64,000 nucleotides of DNA from Escherichia phage phiP4. The stretch is taken from sequence record PP993145.1; one strand, 5' to 3'. Under the pieces are notes generated by a model. That model saw only the letters and a program-made list of their open reading frames with translations, ran no database searches and was not told where the DNA came from. This document shows positions 10,698 to 43,254 of this stretch, in pieces; positions within the stretch are counted from its first letter, which is position 1, and the number at the start of each line of letters is the position of its first letter. Position numbers and translations under genes: made by a program.

Positions 10698-10773
10698 TGG
10701 AGCGGCTAGAGGGAATCGAACCCTACTCAGCGAGGCTTGGAAGGCCTGCGACACAACCCGTGTGCTTAACCGC
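10698..10773 (-). tRNA. tRNA-Gly (UCC)
   Basis: Acceptor GCGGTTA/TAGCCGC, T-loop TTCGATT, anticodon loop CTTCCAA. Confidence 0.5.
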
Positions 10774-10781
10774 TTATTATT

Positions 10782-11477: not shown

Positions 11478-11704
11478 AATTGAAAACTCGCAGGGTTAGC
11501 GAAACCTTCCTCAATTAGCATGTTCTAGAATACTAATCAAGTTATCTCCTATTGCACGCAGCTCAAGACGAGTACGAATTTTCAATTGTGGCGGCTCTCA
11601 GAAACTCTTCTACTCTAGCTTTAGCAGCTTACTCCCGAACGCATGTCGGGGAAGTCTTACCAAGAGCATCAAATAGCACCGTTACACTTTGAGCCATAGA
11701 TGTA

Positions 11705-11800
11705 TCAAGAAGCAGAAGGATTTGAACCTTCACGAGATAGACCAGTTATCTCAGCCGCTTTATGAGGTATGTTGCAGGGAGTGGATGTTCCCTATAAACC
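11705..11800 (-). ncRNA. tRNA-like element, not foldable as a canonical tRNA
   Basis: Perfect T-arm GAAGG-TTCAAAT-CCTTC at 11716-11732 but no complementary 5' acceptor strand found within 100 nt; bounds are a guess. Confidence 0.25.
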
Positions 11801-12040
11801 TTTTAGGCAGCCCCGTCTACCGATTCCGGCATACTTCAAGAATTTTTTATAAACCAGCAGAAGCCTCATTTAAAGCATCAACAATAGCTTCACGTTGGGT
11901 CATTCCATACCCGGTGGAATCTAGGTGTGGCAAATAAGCCATCCATCCCTTATCTGTTTCATGAAGACATGCTTTAAATTTTTTACCATCCTTCATTGTT
12001 ACAGTAACTGTTTTGCTCATAAGATTTCCTTATAGTTAAT

Positions 12041-12874: not shown

Positions 12875-12887
12875 AAATTCTTTAGTT

Positions 12888-13072
12888 TACTAAGGCTATT
12901 AGCTCGGCGTAACTACAGCACCTTCGCTTCGAGCGGAAGGAACTGCGTCATCTCGCAAACCCAATACACTATTCAGTTGCCGCTGAATCTAGTGGACCAA
13001 TCTAGAACTTCTCCCGAATCAGGGGGATCGTGCTTTTTGGCAGCCAGTCCTAGGTCGAGCTAATACCTTAGT
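12888..13072 (-). ncRNA. structured ORF-free element closed by terminal inverted repeat (candidate small RNA)
   Basis: About 16-nt inverted repeat taaggctattagctcg (12890-12906) / cgagctaatacctta (13055-13070) enclosing a GC-rich stretch with internal hairpins; strand not determined. Confidence 0.3.
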
Positions 13073-13159
13073 GAACTATGATGAGGATTTCTCCTCATCA
13101 ATTTATATAAATATTATAACAAGAAATTAAGCATCAAGCAACTGCGTTTTTTCTTGAAA

Positions 13160-13239
13160 TTGGTAGATCGCCTGGGACTCGAACCCAGAACCTTCCGATT
13201 AAAAGTCGGATGCTACTAAACCTATTGAGCTAGCGATCT
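13160..13239 (-). tRNA. tRNA-Lys (UUU)
   Basis: Acceptor AGATCGC/GCGATCT, anticodon arm TCCGA-CTTTTAA-TCGGA, T-arm CTGGG-TTCGAGT-CCCAG. Confidence 0.7.
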
Positions 13240-13588: not shown

Positions 13589-13797
13589 TTAATTTTTGTT
13601 AACTCACTTTATAAGATATATTATACAGAGAATTAAGCAGAATAGCAAATGAATTTTTAATAAATTTACTTATTGTGTAGGCCACCTAGAGGCTATGAAC
13701 CCCACGGCTGACAAAGAAGTTTGCGAGACTTCTCTTAAATGCCAGAATAGACCCGCCGATCTATCGGAACCTACATAATAAGTAAACTTTATAGTGT

Positions 13798-13918
13798 CAT
13801 TCTAGACAGGACTCGAACCTGTTATCACTTGTGCGGACTTACGAGAACCATTCTTTCACTCGAATCGAACGAGCTTCTGCCCTCGCCAAGCTGGTTTCCC
13901 CATCAACCACGCTAGAAT
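13798..13918 (-). ncRNA. unusual tRNA-like RNA of about 120 nt (tRNA with large insertion or novel tRNA-like ncRNA)
   Basis: Perfect 7-bp acceptor pairing between 13799-13805 and 13912-13918, perfect T-arm ACAGG-TTCGAGT-CCTGT, D-arm-like TGGT-loop-ACCA, but about 45 extra nt between D-arm and T-arm including a second T-arm-like hairpin. Confidence 0.4.
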
Positions 13919-17527: not shown

Positions 17528-17605
17528 TGGTGGCTCCCCGAGGATTCGAACCTACGTACCTTCCGGTTATGAGCCGGGTGCTCATACCATATGAGCTTGA
17601 GAACC
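17528..17605 (-). tRNA. tRNA, anticodon CAU (Met-type)
   Basis: Acceptor GGTTCTC/GGGAGCC, D-arm GCTC-ATATGGTAT-GAGC, anticodon arm CCGG-CTCATAA-CCGG; T-stem weak. Confidence 0.5.
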
Positions 17606-20123: not shown

Positions 20124-20137
20124 ACCAAAAAACAAAA

Positions 20138-20170
20138 GCCCCTGCCGAAAGGTAAGGGGCTTTTTCTTTT
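20138..20170 (+). terminator. rho-independent terminator (plus-strand unit)
   Basis: Hairpin gcccct-gccgaaaggta-aggggc followed by TTTTTCTTTT. Confidence 0.65.
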
Positions 20171-20184
20171 GCCTTAAATACAGA

Positions 20185-20220
20185 AAAGCCCGCGCTCTCG
20201 GAGGAAACGCGGGCTTGGTT
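20185..20220 (-). terminator. rho-independent terminator (SPFH gene)
   Basis: Hairpin agcccgcg...cgcgggct with T-run on minus strand, downstream of 20240..21187. Confidence 0.6.
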
Positions 20221-21221: not shown

Positions 21222-21296
21222 TGGCCGAGGTGACAGGATTCGAACCTGCATAAAGGAATTTAGAAGACTCCTGCCTCTCCCTTAGACTACACCCCG
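21222..21296 (-). tRNA. tRNA-Arg (UCU)
   Basis: Acceptor CGGGGTG/CACCTCG, T-arm GCAGG-TTCGAAT-CCTGT, anticodon arm GGAGT-CTTCTAA-ATTCC. Confidence 0.6.
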
Positions 21297-21798
21297 TTTA
21301 AGTATTTTTAAGAACTCTCGTAAAAACTCTTAAAAATACAGACGATACCGGGAGAGTCATAAGTCTCACTCATTAAGTATTTCAAGACAAAATACAGTAA
21401 CGTCTATTATTTTCCAGTTTAAGTCAAGGTGACTTAGTGGTTATGTCCTGCGGTATATTGAGGACTCGGTTAGGCTTGGGGTCATGACTTCCCGCCTTTT
21501 GCTGCTACTCAACAGGAGTTATCGCGAATTACCTGTGCTATTGTGCACCATTAGTGACATCTCTCATGTCAGCATTTCCCACTTTGTGGATAGCTTGAAA
21601 AACTACTCCGATATGGAGAAAGAACTTCACTATCCTAGAATACCTTCTAAAGTTCTTCTTTAGCCTGGACATAGTTAAATCGTAATAAAACTATTCAGCA
21701 GACTGGTTGGTTAGTCTGGAACCAACTACCGCGTGGTTTAGGCAGTGCGCAACTAACCTCGGAAGCTTTTACGTTAAAAGCATCAGTTATCCAGTTCT

Positions 21799-21870
21799 TA
21801 CCGACCGTAGGATTCGAACCTACATCTTCCACCAGTTACGGCTTGATAATACCAATTATACTAGGACGGC
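21799..21870 (-). ncRNA. tRNA-like element (possible pseudo-tRNA)
   Basis: T-arm GTAGG-TTCGAAT-CCTAC and near-complementary acceptor strands, but the anticodon arm does not fold. Confidence 0.3.
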
Positions 21871-22089
21871 AGTGTTACTACATAAGTGATTTCCACACCC
21901 CACTATTTATAAATTAGAGAAGAGTTTAAGGGAGAGGTTTCAGACGCCTCATTTTACACGTTCTAGCCACTAACCGGGATTGCCGCCCCCTGTGTACTAG
22001 TTTTACAACTAACCCACCGACTCTATTCAATGCGCTCCGGTTGGGATTCTGCACTCAGCGTAATCGGCTCGCTGTTCCCTAATTTATGA

Positions 22090-22125
22090 ATATATTATAC
22101 ATAATTTATAAGCATTTAGCAAATG
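22090..22125 (-). promoter_or_regulatory. T5-type early promoter driving leftward transcription into the tRNA region
   Basis: Minus-strand TTGCTA (22117-22122), 17-bp spacer, TATAAT (22094-22099). Confidence 0.5.
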
Positions 22126-22130
22126 AATTT

Positions 22131-22565
22131 TTAGAAAAATTCACTAGCAATCAAAGCAGTTGTTTTACCGTCATAACGTCCAGGAAATTCTGCCTTAATA
22201 GTTTTCATTAAAAGAGCTTTGGTAATTCCTGGATTTAATTTAACCAGTTCTGCAAAATACTCACGAATTTCAGTTTCAGTCAGTTGACTTGGCTGATACT
22301 CTTGCAGCATGGAATAAAGCAGTTGCTCATAGTCTACATCAGTAGGAACTTTCATACCAACTTTAATAGCGCGCTGTTTTGCATTTTCTAGAGCCTTAAT
22401 CTGAGCTTTCAGATAGGCTACGAACTCGGTTCGAGTAACAATGTCTTTATCAATACGTTGCAGATCACCAATCATGGTCTGAAGATTAAGTGCCCGCTCT
22501 TTATCACCGTGAGTACGTGCTAGACTAAGCAGTCCACGAAGGGTCATTAGGATATTTTCACCCAT
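22131..22565 (-). CDS. hypothetical protein
   Basis: 144-aa ORF. Confidence 0.45.
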   Translation of the reverse strand: MGENILMTLRGLLSLARTHGDKERALNLQTMIGDLQRIDKDIVTRTEFVAYLKAQIKALENAKQRAIKVGMKVPTDVDYEQLLYSMLQEYQPSQLTETEIREYFAELVKLNPGITKALLMKTIKAEFPGRYDGKTTALIASEFF

Positions 22566-40464: not shown

Positions 40465-43254
40465 GTGTTCTCAATCCTACAAGGTCATGCAGGATTTCAT
40501 CGCGACTTAGCCACAGGCATTTGGCGAGAAGTTAAAGCAGAAGACTATCTTTTTGCTAAAAGATTTTCCTCAAAGCATCCTGAAGGTAAACCAGCTTCAA
40601 TGCCCTTCAAGTTTGATGTAATTGATGAAGTTGATCCTCAAACCCTAGTAGAAATGCTCCCTCTTATGAGACGTTTAACGTCTGACCCTCATATCGTTGC
40701 GGTACGAGGTCGATGTCTTGCACCTAAAAATAATGTGCGACGTAAGAAGGGCAACTTTAATGTATCTAATCCAAGTCATATAATTGCAATGGATGTGGAT
40801 GGTATTGTAGATACAGGTGGTTGTAACAAGTTTGATCTTGTTGGCATGGCTCGACATATTATTAGAATGTTAAATAGTATTAGTGAGGATATGTTTCCTC
40901 TTGATGCAGGGTTTATCGCTCATGCATCGTCTTCGGCTGGGCTAAAACCAGGTATCCGAATGCACTTAATACTAGAATCTAATGTTAAGGTAACTCAGGG
41001 TCAAATCAAGTTCTTATTTACATCTATCAACGAAAGTAGTAGACAAAAGTATGGCTTTGATATTGCCGACTTAGCTTATTACTCTTCCGTACAGCTCCAT
41101 TATTTCGCAGATCCGTTATTTACTGATGGTATAGTAGATCCGTTTAAAGCGGAGGGTGCTTCACGTCTGGTATTTGTTAAGGGTTCTAAAGTAAATTTAC
41201 CAAATAATCTGGTTGACTATGAAACAACTAGAGGTGAGTTTAAGGAGGAGTTTTACTCTTTACTCGATCAAATTAAAGGTAAAAAAGCTGCCTCTGATAA
41301 AGTAGAGGAAACTATCAGCGAACTAGAAGAAGCTGAGGATGGAGTGTATCTACGTATCATACCTAAACTCTATCACAGAGCTTTAGAGGATGGTGTTGAT
41401 TTTGCATGGCTAGAAAAAGAAATCCGTCCAGCCTTATCAGAATATATTGCAACTAAAGATAATAGTCGTAATATTCAAGATTACTTTAATAATGGTCGTA
41501 AACAGGCTCTGAAGGCGTTTGTTAATAATTCTAAACGCGATATACCTGATGTTTTAAAAGGTATTCCACTTAAAAAGCTAGAAACTAATTCTCTAGAAAC
41601 TGATAACTTCTTGAAATTAAATACTGTACCACCAGAAGGTTATATGACTTTTGTAAAAGCAAGTCTAGGTACAGGTAAAACTACGGCGGTTGTGCGTTGG
41701 TTAGATTCAGGAGTTATTAAAGGTAATTTCTTAGCAATTACCAACACTCGAGCACTGGTATCTTCAAATGCTAAGAAATTTAGTGCAGGACAATATGATA
41801 AGTCTGTAGATATGCTTAATTTTAAGCGTGGCGCTATTGACCGTATGTCCACAACTATTCACTCTTTGCATAAGTTCAAGAGTTTTATTGGTCAAATTGA
41901 TGCAATCTTTATCGATGAATGTGATGCTGTAATGAATGACCTATTATTCGCCCCGGTTGTTAAACAACGTCGTGAATGTATTCAGGTTCTTCGGGATATT
42001 CTTGCAACTGCAAAAATTATTATATTATCTGATGGGGATATTAGTGCAGAAACAATTGAAGCATATGGTTCTTTGATTGAGTTCGATAAACCGGTTGCAT
42101 TTTATAATCATCACCGTAAAATGCTATCAAAAGCTCATGCTTATGAGTTCCCGGATGAATCCAGTATTTGGGTTGCACTTCAGACTTCTCTAGAAATGGG
42201 TGAGAAATCTATTCTGGTATCTGATTGTGGTCCTGATGAACTGAATGAGAAGGGTATGGCACTGCGTCGTAATACGGGTGCATTAGTTAAGGAAATCCAC
42301 TCAAACTCTACGTCTGATGTAGATATTCGACGTATTCTGGATTACACAACTAATGAGCTAATTGACCAACAAATTGATTGCTTATTATGTAGTCCATCCG
42401 TAACGAGTGGTGTTGACTTCAACTACTTTGATAACGTATTCGTTATTACTAGAACTAGTAATCAAGCGCCAAACATGCGTTTCCAAGCAATCAGGCGCGA
42501 CCGTGGCGCTCAGAACATTTATTATTTTATTGATAAATCTACTAGTGGATTCTCTGCAGGTTCTGAACAATATAACATTGATGAAGGTTGGCTGGAGTTA
42601 GCACAGCAATTATACGCACGTCGTAGGGAGCTGGAGTCTAGGAACTATACTAGTACTTTACGTTATTACTTGCTTGATCAGGGTGCAACTATTGATATTT
42701 TCAGTGAAAGCTGGGGAACTATCGAAGGTGCAGGAAAAGAGTATACGGAAGAGCGAATCAAAGCTATTTTGTATTCAACTCCTGATTATTGTGCTCCACG
42801 CCATGCAGATGCGTATGAAGCTAAACTACTTCTTGTTCGCTATTATCATCTTGAGTCTATTAAAGATGTAACAGTTGAGCACGTTGAACAATATATCAAG
42901 GATAAACCGAATGATCGAGCGGCATTCTTCCATAAAATGCACGAGATGTTCTGGGAAGATATTAAGAAGTGTTCAAATGTCACTATCAAACCATTCATAG
43001 AAGCTCTGAAAGGTAAGAAGAAAGATTTCTTCCTTAAAACAGGCCAGAGTGCTAACCCAAAATATGCAAGAATGTATCTTGGTATGATGGGTATTGGTAA
43101 GGATATGAACACGGAGAATATTGTAGACTGGTACAGAACCTATTGTAAAATCGAGTGTATGCCAATCCCGTATAAGTTTATGACTGATGAGGAGAAACAT
43201 ATGCATGATGAAGCAATGGCAGAGCTAGGTGCTAGAAATGACAGTGAAGAATAA
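40465..43254 (+). CDS. putative replication origin-binding helicase with N-terminal primase-polymerase-like region
   Basis: GTG start after AGGAG (in frame with the 40387 ORF); Walker A SLGTGKTT, Walker B IFIDECD; N-terminal IIAMDVDG and SSAGLKPGIRMHLIL resemble AEP prim-pol motifs I/II. Confidence 0.55.
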   Translation: MFSILQGHAGFHRDLATGIWREVKAEDYLFAKRFSSKHPEGKPASMPFKFDVIDEVDPQTLVEMLPLMRRLTSDPHIVAVRGRCLAPKNNVRRKKGNFNVSNPSHIIAMDVDGIVDTGGCNKFDLVGMARHIIRMLNSISEDMFPLDAGFIAHASSSAGLKPGIRMHLILESNVKVTQGQIKFLFTSINESSRQKYGFDIADLAYYSSVQLHYFADPLFTDGIVDPFKAEGASRLVFVKGSKVNLPNNLVDYETTRGEFKEEFYSLLDQIKGKKAASDKVEETISELEEAEDGVYLRIIPKLYHRALEDGVDFAWLEKEIRPALSEYIATKDNSRNIQDYFNNGRKQALKAFVNNSKRDIPDVLKGIPLKKLETNSLETDNFLKLNTVPPEGYMTFVKASLGTGKTTAVVRWLDSGVIKGNFLAITNTRALVSSNAKKFSAGQYDKSVDMLNFKRGAIDRMSTTIHSLHKFKSFIGQIDAIFIDECDAVMNDLLFAPVVKQRRECIQVLRDILATAKIIILSDGDISAETIEAYGSLIEFDKPVAFYNHHRKMLSKAHAYEFPDESSIWVALQTSLEMGEKSILVSDCGPDELNEKGMALRRNTGALVKEIHSNSTSDVDIRRILDYTTNELIDQQIDCLLCSPSVTSGVDFNYFDNVFVITRTSNQAPNMRFQAIRRDRGAQNIYYFIDKSTSGFSAGSEQYNIDEGWLELAQQLYARRRELESRNYTSTLRYYLLDQGATIDIFSESWGTIEGAGKEYTEERIKAILYSTPDYCAPRHADAYEAKLLLVRYYHLESIKDVTVEHVEQYIKDKPNDRAAFFHKMHEMFWEDIKKCSNVTIKPFIEALKGKKKDFFLKTGQSANPKYARMYLGMMGIGKDMNTENIVDWYRTYCKIECMPIPYKFMTDEEKHMHDEAMAELGARNDSEE

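What the first reader, a model, noticed from the sequence alone, without database searches (positions are those of the whole stretch)
21297..22130. Roughly 800 nt without credible ORFs inside the tRNA cluster, driven by its own promoter
Between tRNA-Arg (21222-21296) and the gene at 22131 there are only short frames. The region contains a tRNA-like element (21799-21870), several GC-rich hairpins and a minus-strand TTGCTA-N17-TATAAT promoter at 22094-22122 pointing into it. This suggests a dedicated transcript for tRNAs or ncRNAs.
Basis: seen in the sequence. Interest (0 to 1): 0.45.

Follow-up and report, generated by a model that had tools for sequence, protein, structure and literature searches.

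The report
Phage T5 'RNAX' structured RNA gene
The ORF-free 0.8 kb next to tRNA-Arg is the gene for 'RNAX', a long non-coding RNA already annotated in phage T5 with unknown function; comparing relatives shows it folds into an elaborate conserved structure, so it is a real RNA with an unsolved job.

Summary
The window comes from a T5-like phage (Tequintavirus, 99.3-99.5% identical to many isolates). The flagged stretch is orthologous to the misc_RNA 'rnaX / RNAX, stable RNA with unknown functions', annotated in T5 RefSeq and in Salmonella phage 5. There it lies between 'promoter P16-17' and tRNA-Arg. No reading frame is conserved. The TTGCTA-N17-TATAAT promoter is present and conserved. The tRNA-like element passes the Rfam tRNA threshold (35.5 bits) but lacks a conserved anticodon arm.

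New here is comparison of about 30 distinct homologues (Markadamsvirinae, Sugarlandvirus, Mccorquodalevirinae). RNAX is modular:
- an optional 5' cassette;
- a tRNA-like domain at the tip of a roughly 12-bp covarying 'clamp' helix;
- a roughly 500-nt 3' core, ending in a near-invariant 17-bp hairpin that abuts tRNA-Arg.

In the two tested segments 34 of 65 pairs show compensatory changes, and 91-95% of cells pair against 31-47% in slid controls. G.U pairs outnumber A.C about 68 to 1, which fixes the transcribed strand. One hairpin presents an invariant loop holding the palindrome GUCAUGAC, a candidate dimerisation site.

No Rfam family other than tRNA matches, and GOLLD and ROOL do not. The gene is known; its architecture and function are not.

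The parts
22094..22122 (-). Sigma-70 promoter (TTGCTA -35 at 22122-22117, 17-nt spacer, TATAAT -10 at 22099-22094); equals T5 'promoter P16-17'
   Evidence: 10/12 match; annotated; conserved in homologues; similar to other annotated T5 early promoters.
21297..22081 (-). RNAX non-coding RNA gene, 785 nt by analogy with the AJ604531 annotation. The true 5' end was not mapped here; a start near 22087-22081 fits the -10 hexamer.
   Evidence: 99.3% identical to annotated rnaX of Salmonella phage 5; orthologous to T5 rnaX; no conserved ORF; single copy in the window.
21916..22075 (-). Optional 5' cassette: hairpin CAGCG..CGCUG (22074-22056), conserved motif UGAAUAGAGUCGGUGGGUUAG (22029-22009), hairpin GAGG..CCUC (21950-21934), motif UAAACUCUUCUCU (21928-21916)
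   Evidence: Absent from T5 and several relatives; replaced by an HNH endonuclease ORF or by other cassettes in others.
21895..21898 (-). Motif 'a' (GUGG, the first four bases of the conserved GUGGGGUGU at 21895-21903), 5' strand of a long-range helix with CCAC at 21733-21736
   Evidence: Predicted independently by RNAalifold. 2 of 4 pairs covary, but only through the Pectobacterium phage (ACGG/CCGU).
21877..21890 (-). 5' strand of the 'clamp' helix (AUCAC-UUAUGUAGU)
   Evidence: Pairs with 21782-21795. 5 of 8 core pairs have compensatory changes and there is a conserved G.G mismatch. RNAalifold adds a 4-bp extension in which two pairs covary.
21799..21870 (-). Embedded tRNA-like domain: acceptor stem with a G1.U72 pair and a U5.U68 mismatch, D arm, canonical T arm GUAGG-UUCGAAU-CCUAC; no proper anticodon arm, no CCA
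   Evidence: Rfam tRNA 35.5 bits. Acceptor and T arm covary. Anticodon calls are inconsistent or absent in homologues. The anticodon arm is replaced by a GC hairpin in phiR201. The whole domain is replaced by a 49-nt hairpin in L016.
21782..21795 (-). 3' strand of the clamp helix (ACUGGAUAAC-UGAU), containing the conserved GAUAAC
21765..21781 (-). Hairpin Pa (GCUUUU-AACGU-AAAAGC)
   Evidence: 3 of 6 pairs covary (UA/AU/CG at one position in 10/5/5 sequences).
21732..21758 (-). Hairpin Pb (GGUUAGU..ACUGCC, an expansion site in relatives), followed by the conserved AAACCACG (motif 'c')
   Evidence: Seen in alignments. Pb was not counted formally because MAFFT misaligns its 3' strand.
21590..21731 (-). 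Variable middle region (local hairpins; conserved UCGGAG motif); structure not resolved
   Evidence: Differs by lineage; 98.7% identical to L019 over 156 nt, but only a 67-nt stretch (80.6%) aligns with L014 and nothing aligns with L013 or L016.
21473..21589 (-). 3' core, first half: CCAC-AAA-GUGGGAAA (21589-21575), hairpin H1 (21571-21555), H3 with loop GCGAUAAC (21536-21512), H4 (21496-21473)
   Evidence: H1, H3 and H4 have compensatory pairs. RNAalifold predicts H3 and H4.
21481..21488 (-). Palindrome GUCAUGAC within the invariant H4 loop sequence (G/A)AGUCAUGACC
   Evidence: Invariant in 16 of 16 aligned sequences while the stem below covaries. GAGTCATGACC occurs once in each of 33 loci; the window-type sequences carry the AAGTCATGACC variant and were confirmed separately.
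21412..21465 (-). H5 (GUCCU..AGGAC, 21465-21445), AUAACCAC (21444-21437), H6 AGUCA-CCU-UGACU (21434-21422), UAAACUGGAA (21421-21412)
   Evidence: All 5 H5 pairs covary; H6 is invariant. T5 carries an 83-nt insertion flanked by a 23-nt duplication of H6 plus UAAACUGGAA.
21341..21404 (-). Three-way junction: outer helix GACGUUACUG/CGGUAUCGUC, two inner hairpins, junction CUUAAU
   Evidence: Three very different sequence types fold on their own into the same topology. The outer helix covaries at 5 positions in a fitted alignment.
21302..21339 (-). Terminal 17-bp AU-rich hairpin, ending 5 nt before tRNA-Arg; the most conserved segment of the family
   Evidence: 90-100% identical across three subfamilies. 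96.8% of cells paired; 12 of 17 pairs invariant. No U-tract follows, so it is not an intrinsic terminator (sequence).
21222..21296 (-). tRNA-Arg(UCU), immediately 3' of RNAX; its 5' processing would create the RNAX 3' end
   Evidence: adjacency is annotated in T5 and phage 5.

Best explanation
The stretch is the gene for RNAX, the stable non-coding RNA annotated in phage T5.

Shown here:
- It is an orthologue of annotated rnaX, it has a conserved sigma-70 promoter, and it has no conserved ORF.
- The RNA strand (window minus strand) carries a modular secondary structure supported by many compensatory changes.
- The modules are an optional 5' cassette, a tRNA-like domain held at the tip of a roughly 12-bp leader-trailer 'clamp' helix, and a roughly 500-nt 3' core.
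- The 3' core contains several covarying hairpins, one with an invariant loop AGUCAUGA. It also contains a three-way junction and a nearly invariant 17-bp terminal hairpin that abuts tRNA-Arg.

Inferred:
- Host RNA polymerase transcribes RNAX, tRNA-Arg and the SPFH gene as one early transcript.
- RNase P cleavage at the 5' end of tRNA-Arg releases RNAX.
- The terminal hairpin shields the RNAX 3' end from exonucleases, which would explain why the RNA is 'stable'.
- The clamp keeps the tRNA-like domain inside the molecule rather than letting it be excised as a tRNA.

Most speculative: the conserved 3' core is the working part. It acts in trans as a folded RNA scaffold. The 6-nt self-complementary UCAUGA in the H4 loop lets two copies pair loop to loop (dimer or higher assembly), and the sequence-invariant motifs bind a protein or RNA partner. 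The biological role is not established.
For: Identity:
- 99.3-99.5% identity to T5-like genomes.
- rnaX, promoter P16-17 and tRNA-Arg are annotated in the same order in T5 and phage 5 and in DT571/2.

Non-coding: every frame is broken in diverged homologues.

Structure:
- Alignment A1: 33 pairs, 94.5% of cells paired against 35-41% when slid, 18 pairs with changes on both sides, 0 of 500 shuffles as high.
- Alignment A2: 32 pairs, 91.5% against 31-47%, 16 compensatory pairs, 0 of 500.
- RNAalifold, run independently, recovers the clamp, acceptor stem, T arm, Pa, the a-c helix, H3, H4 and H5.
- The three-way junction topology recurs in three unrelated sequence types.

Strand: 68 G.U against about 1 A.C among the tested cells.

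Constraint:
- The aligned RNAX segments are 78-84% identical to Epseptimavirus, against 71-75% for the part of the flanking YqeY-like CDS that aligns.
- The invariant H4 loop is present once in every homologue.

Independence from tRNA-Arg: ORFs are inserted between RNAX and tRNA-Arg in several phages, and no tRNA lies in the Sugarlandvirus loci.

Family size: 532 phage records match the whole RNAX query, 498 match a Pectobacterium RNAX query, and 615 match a query of terminal hairpin plus tRNA-Arg (which includes tRNA-only matches outside T5-like phages). IMG/VR and metagenome scans returned only T5-like contigs.
Against: - No expression data were examined here. 'Stable RNA' rests on the depositors' annotation, and no paper describing RNAX could be found in the searchable library.
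- The annotated 5' end (22081) lies 13 nt past the -10 hexamer, so it is probably not a mapped start site.
- Single-sequence folding energy is ordinary (z = -0.88).
- The tRNA-like domain is replaced by a plain hairpin in L016, L045 and L078. The 5' cassette is optional. Neither can therefore be essential.
- Obesumbacterium phage Ob_P keeps only the leader and tRNA-like part within the 3 kb examined.
- The a-c helix covaries in one clade only. The b-d helix, H6 and the terminal hairpin are invariant, so covariation cannot test them.
- Dimerisation through the palindromic loop is inference from sequence alone. The palindromes could instead be protein sites or DNA-level sites.
- The middle 140 nt and any tertiary contacts are unresolved.
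Confidence: 0.62

Rival explanations
1. RNAX is only a long processed leader or spacer of a tRNA-Arg operon. It would carry a decayed tRNA gene and processing signals and have no function once tRNA-Arg is cut out.
For: It abuts tRNA-Arg exactly. It contains a tRNA-like element with a degenerate anticodon arm. The region is mosaic, with indels and mobile-element insertions.
Against: About 500 nt of structure is maintained by compensatory changes across three subfamilies. RNAX persists where ORFs separate it from tRNA-Arg and where no tRNA follows. Sequence-invariant loops and junctions lie far from the tRNA. The depositors call it a stable RNA.
Confidence: 0.13
2. RNAX is a tRNA mimic, acting as decoy or sponge. 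Its tRNA-like domain would bind a tRNA-recognising host factor (RNase P, a modification enzyme, or a tRNA-targeting defence nuclease) to protect or favour the phage tRNA pool.
For: Acceptor stem, D arm and a canonical T arm are conserved with covariation. The gene sits in a tRNA-rich region next to a weakly YqeY-like protein (Pfam 20.8 bits, below the cut-off of 27). T5 tRNAs are known to counter tRNA-cleaving defences (cited in PMC10644984).
Against: The anticodon arm, the usual target of anticodon nucleases, is not conserved. The whole domain is replaced by a non-tRNA hairpin in some phages that keep the rest of RNAX. Most of the constraint lies in the 3' core, not in the tRNA-like part.
Confidence: 0.1
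3. RNAX is a giant cis-acting 5' leader that controls expression of the downstream genes (inserted ORFs, tRNA-Arg, SPFH/band-7 protein).
For: RNAX is always at the 5' end of a co-oriented unit. In several phages the terminal hairpin is followed directly by a ribosome-binding site and an ORF.
Against: The downstream gene differs between lineages (tRNA-Arg, unrelated small ORFs, a different CDS in Sugarlandvirus) while RNAX is conserved. A length of 640-1300 nt with many independent domains is far beyond known leaders. It is annotated as a stable species.
Confidence: 0.08
4. The conservation reflects a DNA-level element, such as operators for a dimeric DNA-binding protein at the AGTCA..TGACT palindromes, a homing-endonuclease target, or a replication or packaging site.
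For: GTCATGAC, AGTCACCTTGACT and the terminal hairpin are conserved in sequence beyond what pairing needs. The locus is a hotspot for HNH and other insertions.
Against: Strong strand asymmetry (68 G.U against about 1 A.C) and compensatory changes that keep RNA pairing while changing the sequence. A dedicated conserved promoter points into the element. This rival could explain a few motifs but not the whole element.
Confidence: 0.05
5. The region encodes one or more small proteins.
For: ORFs of 42-60 aa exist on both strands, and some depositors annotate them as hypothetical proteins.
Against: None is conserved; stops and frameshifts appear in every frame in relatives at 75-80% identity. Several ORFs run antisense through the tRNA-like element. 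Indels are not multiples of three.
Confidence: 0.02

Closest known systems
T5 'RNAX' (misc_RNA rnaX, locus T5s08 in NC_005859; also annotated in Salmonella phage 5 AJ604531 and phage DT571/2)
   Same: Orthologous by sequence and by position: promoter P16-17, then rnaX, then tRNA-Arg, then the SPFH 'lipoprotein' gene. The window copy is 99.3% identical to the phage 5 rnaX.
   Different: T5 itself lacks the roughly 150-nt 5' cassette present here. It carries an 83-nt hairpin insertion flanked by a 23-nt duplication. The annotation gives only 'stable RNA with unknown functions', with no structure, domains or family model.
GOLLD RNA (giant ornate phage/prophage RNA; Weinberg et al. 2009; cryo-EM in PMC12286853)
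   Same: Phage-encoded, 600-800+ nt, next to tRNA genes, with a less conserved 5' region and a conserved 3' region, sometimes a tRNA embedded between them, and unknown function (PMC12286853). RNAX has the same layout.
   Different: No match to the Rfam GOLLD model even at E <= 10 on a 941-nt search or in homologues. Hosts are Enterobacterales phages rather than Lactobacillales, Actinobacteria or marine phages. Oligomerisation of RNAX is untested.
ROOL RNA (rumen-originating ornate large RNA)
   Same: Large structured RNA of phages and prophages, often near tRNA islands, forming RNA-only assemblies (PMC12286853).
   Different: No Rfam match; no shared motifs identified; ROOL has no embedded tRNA-like domain as far as I know (own knowledge).
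tRNA-like domains embedded in larger RNAs (bacterial Y RNA YrlA, PMC4201824; tmRNA; plant-virus TLS)
   Same: An acceptor/T-arm/D-arm module that mimics tRNA, joined to the rest of the RNA through a helix.
   Different: No Rfam hit to YrlA or tmRNA (ARAGORN). RNAX is five to seven times longer. The tRNA-like domain is dispensable in some lineages.
Self-complementary kissing-loop dimerisation sites (e.g. the HIV-1 DIS; own knowledge)
   Same: Apical loop of 8 nt in most homologues (the window-type variant has an A.C in place of the closing G-C pair) with two 5' purines followed by a 6-nt self-complementary sequence (AG-UCAUGA). The loop is invariant while the stem covaries.
   Different: A resemblance of form only; no experiment or structure supports dimerisation for RNAX.

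Membership tests
T5 RNAX (annotated stable RNA of Tequintavirus) | Sequence orthology to annotated rnaX | tested here: met
   834 of 834 nt at 99.3% identity to AJ604531, whose rnaX feature covers the stretch; 92-99% identity to T5 outside the indels.
T5 RNAX (annotated stable RNA of Tequintavirus) | Synteny: promoter P16-17 upstream, tRNA-Arg(UCU) immediately downstream, same strand | tested here: met
T5 RNAX (annotated stable RNA of Tequintavirus) | Accumulates as a stable RNA in infected cells | not testable with these tools
   Only the depositors' note; no primary paper found in the library.
tRNA (Rfam tRNA model) - for the element at 21799-21870 | Score above the curated threshold | tested here: met
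   35.5 bits against a gathering score of 29; homologues score 26.6-38.3 bits.
tRNA (Rfam tRNA model) - for the element at 21799-21870 | Anticodon stem-loop with a conserved anticodon | tested here: not met
   The Rfam alignment skips the arm. ARAGORN makes no call in the window. Homologues give SeC-tca, Leu-tag, Ser-act or nothing. phiR201 has a GC hairpin with a pentaloop instead.
tRNA (Rfam tRNA model) - for the element at 21799-21870 | Free 5' and 3' ends after processing; 3' CCA | tested here: not met
   No CCA follows the discriminator base (sequence). Leader and trailer form a covarying helix of about 12 bp. Whether RNase P cuts here was not testable.
GOLLD RNA | Match to the Rfam covariance model (conserved 3' domain) | tested here: not met
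   No hit at E <= 10 on the locus nor at E <= 1 on four diverged homologues.
GOLLD RNA | Phage-encoded, near tRNA genes, variable 5' and conserved 3' halves, occasional embedded tRNA | tested here: met
   description of GOLLD from PMC12286853. These are shared traits and do not prove homology.
GOLLD RNA | Homo-oligomeric nanocage | not testable with these tools
   Only an invariant palindromic loop hints at self-association.
ROOL RNA | Match to the Rfam covariance model | tested here: not met
tmRNA / Y RNA (YrlA) | Detected by ARAGORN (tmRNA) or by Rfam models | tested here: not met

The most novel reading that the evidence does not exclude
RNAX may be a third, unrelated class of giant 'ornate' phage RNA, a functional analogue of GOLLD and ROOL. 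In this reading it self-assembles through its invariant self-complementary H4 loop (and perhaps the related H6 hairpin) into dimers or larger RNA-only particles, with the clamped tRNA-like domain displayed as an exchangeable peripheral module. Unlike GOLLD and ROOL, it would sit in a classical, genetically tractable coliphage.
Probability: 0.2. Interest if true: 0.85.

Novelty: already known. Interest (0 to 1): 0.5.

Why it matters
The locus is already in GenBank as RNAX, so finding it is not new. It has no Rfam family. I found no published structure or function in the papers I could search.

This analysis shows it is not a spacer. It is a 0.6-1.3 kb RNA with a conserved multi-domain fold, present in roughly 500 or more T5-like phage records covering Escherichia, Salmonella, Klebsiella, Yersinia and Pectobacterium hosts.

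Large structured RNAs that sit next to phage tRNA clusters (GOLLD, ROOL) are an open problem because their phages are hard to manipulate. T5 and E. coli are easy to work with. If RNAX works in a similar way, deletions, loop mutants, pull-downs and cryo-EM could be done at once.

The results also give concrete targets: the H4 palindromic loop, the clamp helix and the terminal hairpin.

Tried and rejected
- **Rfam.** Scans at permissive thresholds on the window and on four diverged homologues returned only tRNA hits. There was no GOLLD, ROOL, tmRNA, Y RNA, RNase P, riboswitch or ribozyme match.
- **Folding energy.** Single-sequence MFE with shuffles was not informative (z = -0.88).
- **Protein coding.** Rejected by tblastn of all frames.
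- **More diversity.**
  - The search for related loci with the YqeY-like protein gave only 7 loci.
  - Motif scans of IMG/VR and of the metagenome collection gave only T5-like contigs plus chance matches.
  - No relative outside Demerecviridae was found.
- **MAFFT and the three-way junction.** MAFFT placed the 5' strand three columns out of register between sequence types. I therefore used per-sequence folding and a fitted helix count, which leans towards the proposed structure.
- **Dropped or undecided helices.**
  - Hairpin H2 (GUGC/GCAC) was dropped because it overlaps H3 and is absent in Sugarlandvirus.
  - The b-d long-range helix (GUGG/CCAC) could not be tested because it is invariant. 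A local CCAC-AAA-GUGG hairpin is an alternative.
  - A UGCU/AGCA closing helix was rejected because T5-type sequences do not support it.
- **Literature.** Searches for RNAX or T5 stable RNAs found nothing.
- **Dispensability.** The escaper-deletion table of the DRT9 paper, which might show whether rnaX can be lost, was not in the stored supplement.
- **Covariance model.** None was built. nhmmer profiles already showed a single copy in the window.
Full report
**What the window is.** The 1-kb stretch around the finding is 99.3-99.5% identical to many T5-like phages of Escherichia and Salmonella (Tequintavirus, Demerecviridae). The window carries 22 ARAGORN tRNA genes on the minus strand. The last is tRNA-Arg(UCU) at 21222-21296.

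**Checking the observation.**
- ORFs. Between tRNA-Arg and the 144-aa gene at 22131-22565 only short ORFs exist (at most 60 aa).
- tRNA-like element. Rfam finds a second tRNA-like hit at 21799-21870 (minus) at 35.5 bits, above the gathering score of 29. ARAGORN does not call it. The Rfam alignment treats the anticodon arm as an 18-nt insertion.
- Promoter. TTGCTA-17-TATAAT is at 22122..22094 on the minus strand (10 of 12). The consensus scan is not above chance on its own (4 found, 7.2 expected). The site is conserved in relatives, resembles other annotated T5 early promoters, and is annotated as a promoter in reference records.
- Verdict.

**It is already named.**
- T5 RefSeq (NC_005859) annotates the orthologous stretch as misc_RNA rnaX (T5s08), 'RNAX, stable RNA with unknown functions', 40848..41566.
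- That feature abuts tRNA-Arg (40773..40847) and is preceded by 'promoter P 16-17'.
- The tRNA-region record of Salmonella phage 5 (AJ604531), 99.3% identical to the window, annotates rnaX as 785 nt. This corresponds to window 22081..21297. DT571/2 carries the same annotation.
- The annotated 5' end lies 13 nt past the -10 hexamer, so it is probably not a mapped start.
- I found no paper on RNAX in the searchable library.

**Not protein-coding.** Every stop-to-stop frame of at least 30 aa in the window copy was compared with eleven diverged homologues. Each frame is interrupted by stops or frameshifts in relatives at 75-80% DNA identity. The ORFs that some depositors annotate are not conserved.

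**Modular anatomy.** I compared 26 representatives from 'phages' and IMG/VR, plus 7 metagenome contigs and Yersinia phage phiR201.

- Overall size. The distance from promoter to terminal hairpin ranges from 688 to 1347 nt.
- 5' cassette (window about 22075-21916). It has its own conserved motifs and variable hairpins.
  - It is absent from T5.
  - In some Epseptimaviruses an HNH endonuclease ORF takes its place (Pfam HNH_3, 1.2e-11).
- The part from the conserved leader (AUAGUGGGGUGU...) to the terminal hairpin is kept in Markadamsvirinae, Sugarlandvirus and the Pectobacterium phages of Mccorquodalevirinae.
  - It carries expansion segments at fixed sites.
  - Invariant motifs alternate with hairpins that change sequence but keep pairing: GAUAAC, AAACCAC, GUGGGAAA, AGUCAUGACC, AUAACCAC, AGUCACCUUGACU, UAAACUGGAA and CUUAAU.
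- Conservation. The aligned RNAX segments are 78-84% identical between the window and Epseptimaviruses. The aligned part of the neighbouring YqeY-like CDS is 71-75% identical.
- Recombination. L019 is 98% identical to the window in the 5' two-thirds but 79% in the 3' core, so recombination occurs inside the gene.

**Covariation.**

Alignment A1 (20 sequences, leader to AAACCACG):
- A hand-drawn structure of 33 pairs is 94.5% paired, against 35-41% when partners are slid.
- 18 pairs have changes on both sides, and 0 of 500 shuffles reach the observed score.
- The most informative helix is a 'clamp' formed by the leader and trailer of the tRNA-like domain (UUAUGUAGU with ACUGGAUAA). 5 of its 8 pairs have compensatory changes and it has a conserved G.G mismatch.
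- RNAalifold, run without my input, predicts the same clamp plus a 4-bp extension in which two pairs covary. It also predicts the acceptor stem, T arm, hairpin Pa and a long-range helix GUGG/CCAC that encloses the whole domain. That last helix covaries only through the Pectobacterium phage.

Alignment A2 (16 sequences, GUGGGAAA to UAAACUGGAA):
- 32 pairs are 91.5% paired against 31-47% slid; 16 pairs are compensatory; 0 of 500 shuffles.
- RNAalifold recovers H3, H4 and H5. All five pairs of H5 covary.

3' end:
- A three-way junction has three very different sequence versions that each fold on their own into the same topology. Its outer helix covaries at five positions in a fitted alignment.
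- The final 17-bp hairpin is almost invariant (12 of 17 pairs never vary). It is the best conserved segment across subfamilies (90-100% identity). This suggests sequence-specific recognition rather than pairing alone.

Strand: among the tested cells there are 68 G.U pairs and about one A.C. The structure therefore belongs to the RNA of the window's minus strand, not to DNA or the opposite transcript.

**The tRNA-like domain.**
- Acceptor stem and T arm are conserved and covary. The first pair is G.U or G.A, and U5.U68 is usually mismatched.
- The anticodon arm is not conserved. ARAGORN gives SeC(tca), Leu(tag), Ser(act) or nothing in different phages. One lineage has a different body with a long extra arm. 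phiR201 has a GC hairpin with a GCGAA pentaloop.
- In L016 (and, from the missing T-arm motif and the same architecture, probably L045 and L078) the whole domain is replaced by a 49-nt hairpin, while the clamp and the rest of RNAX remain.
- No CCA follows, and the flanks are paired.
- It is therefore an embedded, exchangeable structural module and not a decoding tRNA. tRNA mimicry cannot be the core function.

**The H4 loop.**
- Hairpin H4 has a covarying stem (GGC/GCC, GACU/AGUC, GUGAC/GUCAC, AAAUU/AAGUUU).
- It presents a loop whose sequence (G/A)AGUCAUGACC is invariant in all homologues.
- The loop AGUCAUGA has two purines followed by the self-complementary UCAUGA. This is the form of known kissing-loop dimerisation sites (own knowledge).
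- The invariant hairpin H6 (AGUCA-CCU-UGACU) is made of the same two half-sites.
- This is a lead and has not been demonstrated.

**Comparison with known families.**
- Rfam 15 gives no hit other than tRNA, even at E <= 10 on the locus and at E <= 1 on four diverged homologues. RNAX is therefore not a member of GOLLD, ROOL, tmRNA, Y RNA or any other curated family.
- In layout it resembles GOLLD as described in PMC12286853. Both are phage-encoded, lie next to tRNA genes, have a variable 5' part, sometimes an embedded tRNA, and a conserved 3' part, and both have unknown function.

**Most likely mechanism.**
- Shown: an orthologue of the annotated stable RNA, a conserved promoter, no coding capacity, and a strand-specific conserved fold.
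- Inferred: transcription by host polymerase as RNAX, tRNA-Arg and the SPFH gene (Pfam Band_7) up to the bidirectional terminator annotated in T5. RNase P cleavage at the tRNA-Arg 5' end would release RNAX. The terminal hairpin would protect the 3' end.
- Where ORFs separate RNAX from tRNA-Arg, or where no tRNA follows, another nuclease or read-through must define the 3' end.
- Speculative: the 3' core acts in trans as a scaffold that self-associates through H4 and binds a partner through its invariant motifs.

**Verdict.** The added value is the evidence that RNAX is a large, modular, structurally constrained RNA family confined to T5-like phages, together with specific testable features.

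Noticed in passing
L003 (T5) 12987-13050 region; L065; compare window 21412-21434: T5 and one metagenome relative carry an 83-nt hairpin-forming insertion inside RNAX, flanked by a direct duplication of the 23-nt AGTCACCTTGACTTAAACTGGAA. It looks like the footprint of a small mobile element with a target-site duplication.
   Followed up: partly
L014 417-899, L019 417-899, L055 (Epseptimavirus): A 160-aa HNH endonuclease ORF (Pfam HNH_3, 1.2e-11) sits between the RNAX promoter and the conserved leader, replacing the 5' cassette. Other unannotated-function ORFs are inserted between the terminal hairpin and tRNA-Arg in L011, L012, L015 and L104 (those of L012 and L015 were scanned against Pfam without a hit).
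   Followed up: partly
L019 901-1505 versus window 21297-21913: Mosaicism inside the RNA gene: L019 is 98% identical to the window from the leader through the middle region but only 79% in the 3' core. This implies recombination between RNAX variants.
   Followed up: partly
L023 (Obesumbacterium phage Ob_P) 1495-1596: Only the leader and tRNA-like part of RNAX is detectable, flanked by annotated ORFs. The 3' core and terminal hairpin were not found in the 3-kb locus.
   Followed up: no
window 17531-17605 (-), 10701-10774 (-), 11707-11838 (-): Rfam tRNA-type hits that ARAGORN does not call: 40.3 bits, 30.9 bits (tRNA-Sec model) and 26.5 bits. By position, the first matches T5 tRNA-Ile2(CAU). 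The third lies where T5 annotates the tRNA-like stable RNA 'RNA1', upstream of tRNA-His.
   Followed up: no
window 11478-11840, 12875-13160, 13590-13900 (approximate): T5 annotates seven further 'stable RNAs with unknown functions' inside the tRNA cluster (RNAI, RNAIII, RNAIV, RNA1, RNA2, RNA2H, RNA3). Their orthologues in this window were not examined.
   Followed up: no
window 21477-21494 (+): The only 'terminator-like' site found by the scan is the reverse complement of hairpin H4. It is most likely a by-product of the RNAX structure and not a terminator.
   Followed up: yes
window 20130-20219: Weak Rfam hits (anti-hemB 29.1 bits, ctRNA_p42d, Bp2_287; all far below threshold) cluster just past the SPFH gene stop. 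T5 annotates an efficient bidirectional rho-independent terminator at this position.
   Followed up: no
phage collection: A few records named for Listeria, Campylobacter or Pseudomonas hosts match the RNAX or tRNA-Arg query. They may be T5-like phages with odd host labels, or tRNA-only matches.
   Followed up: no
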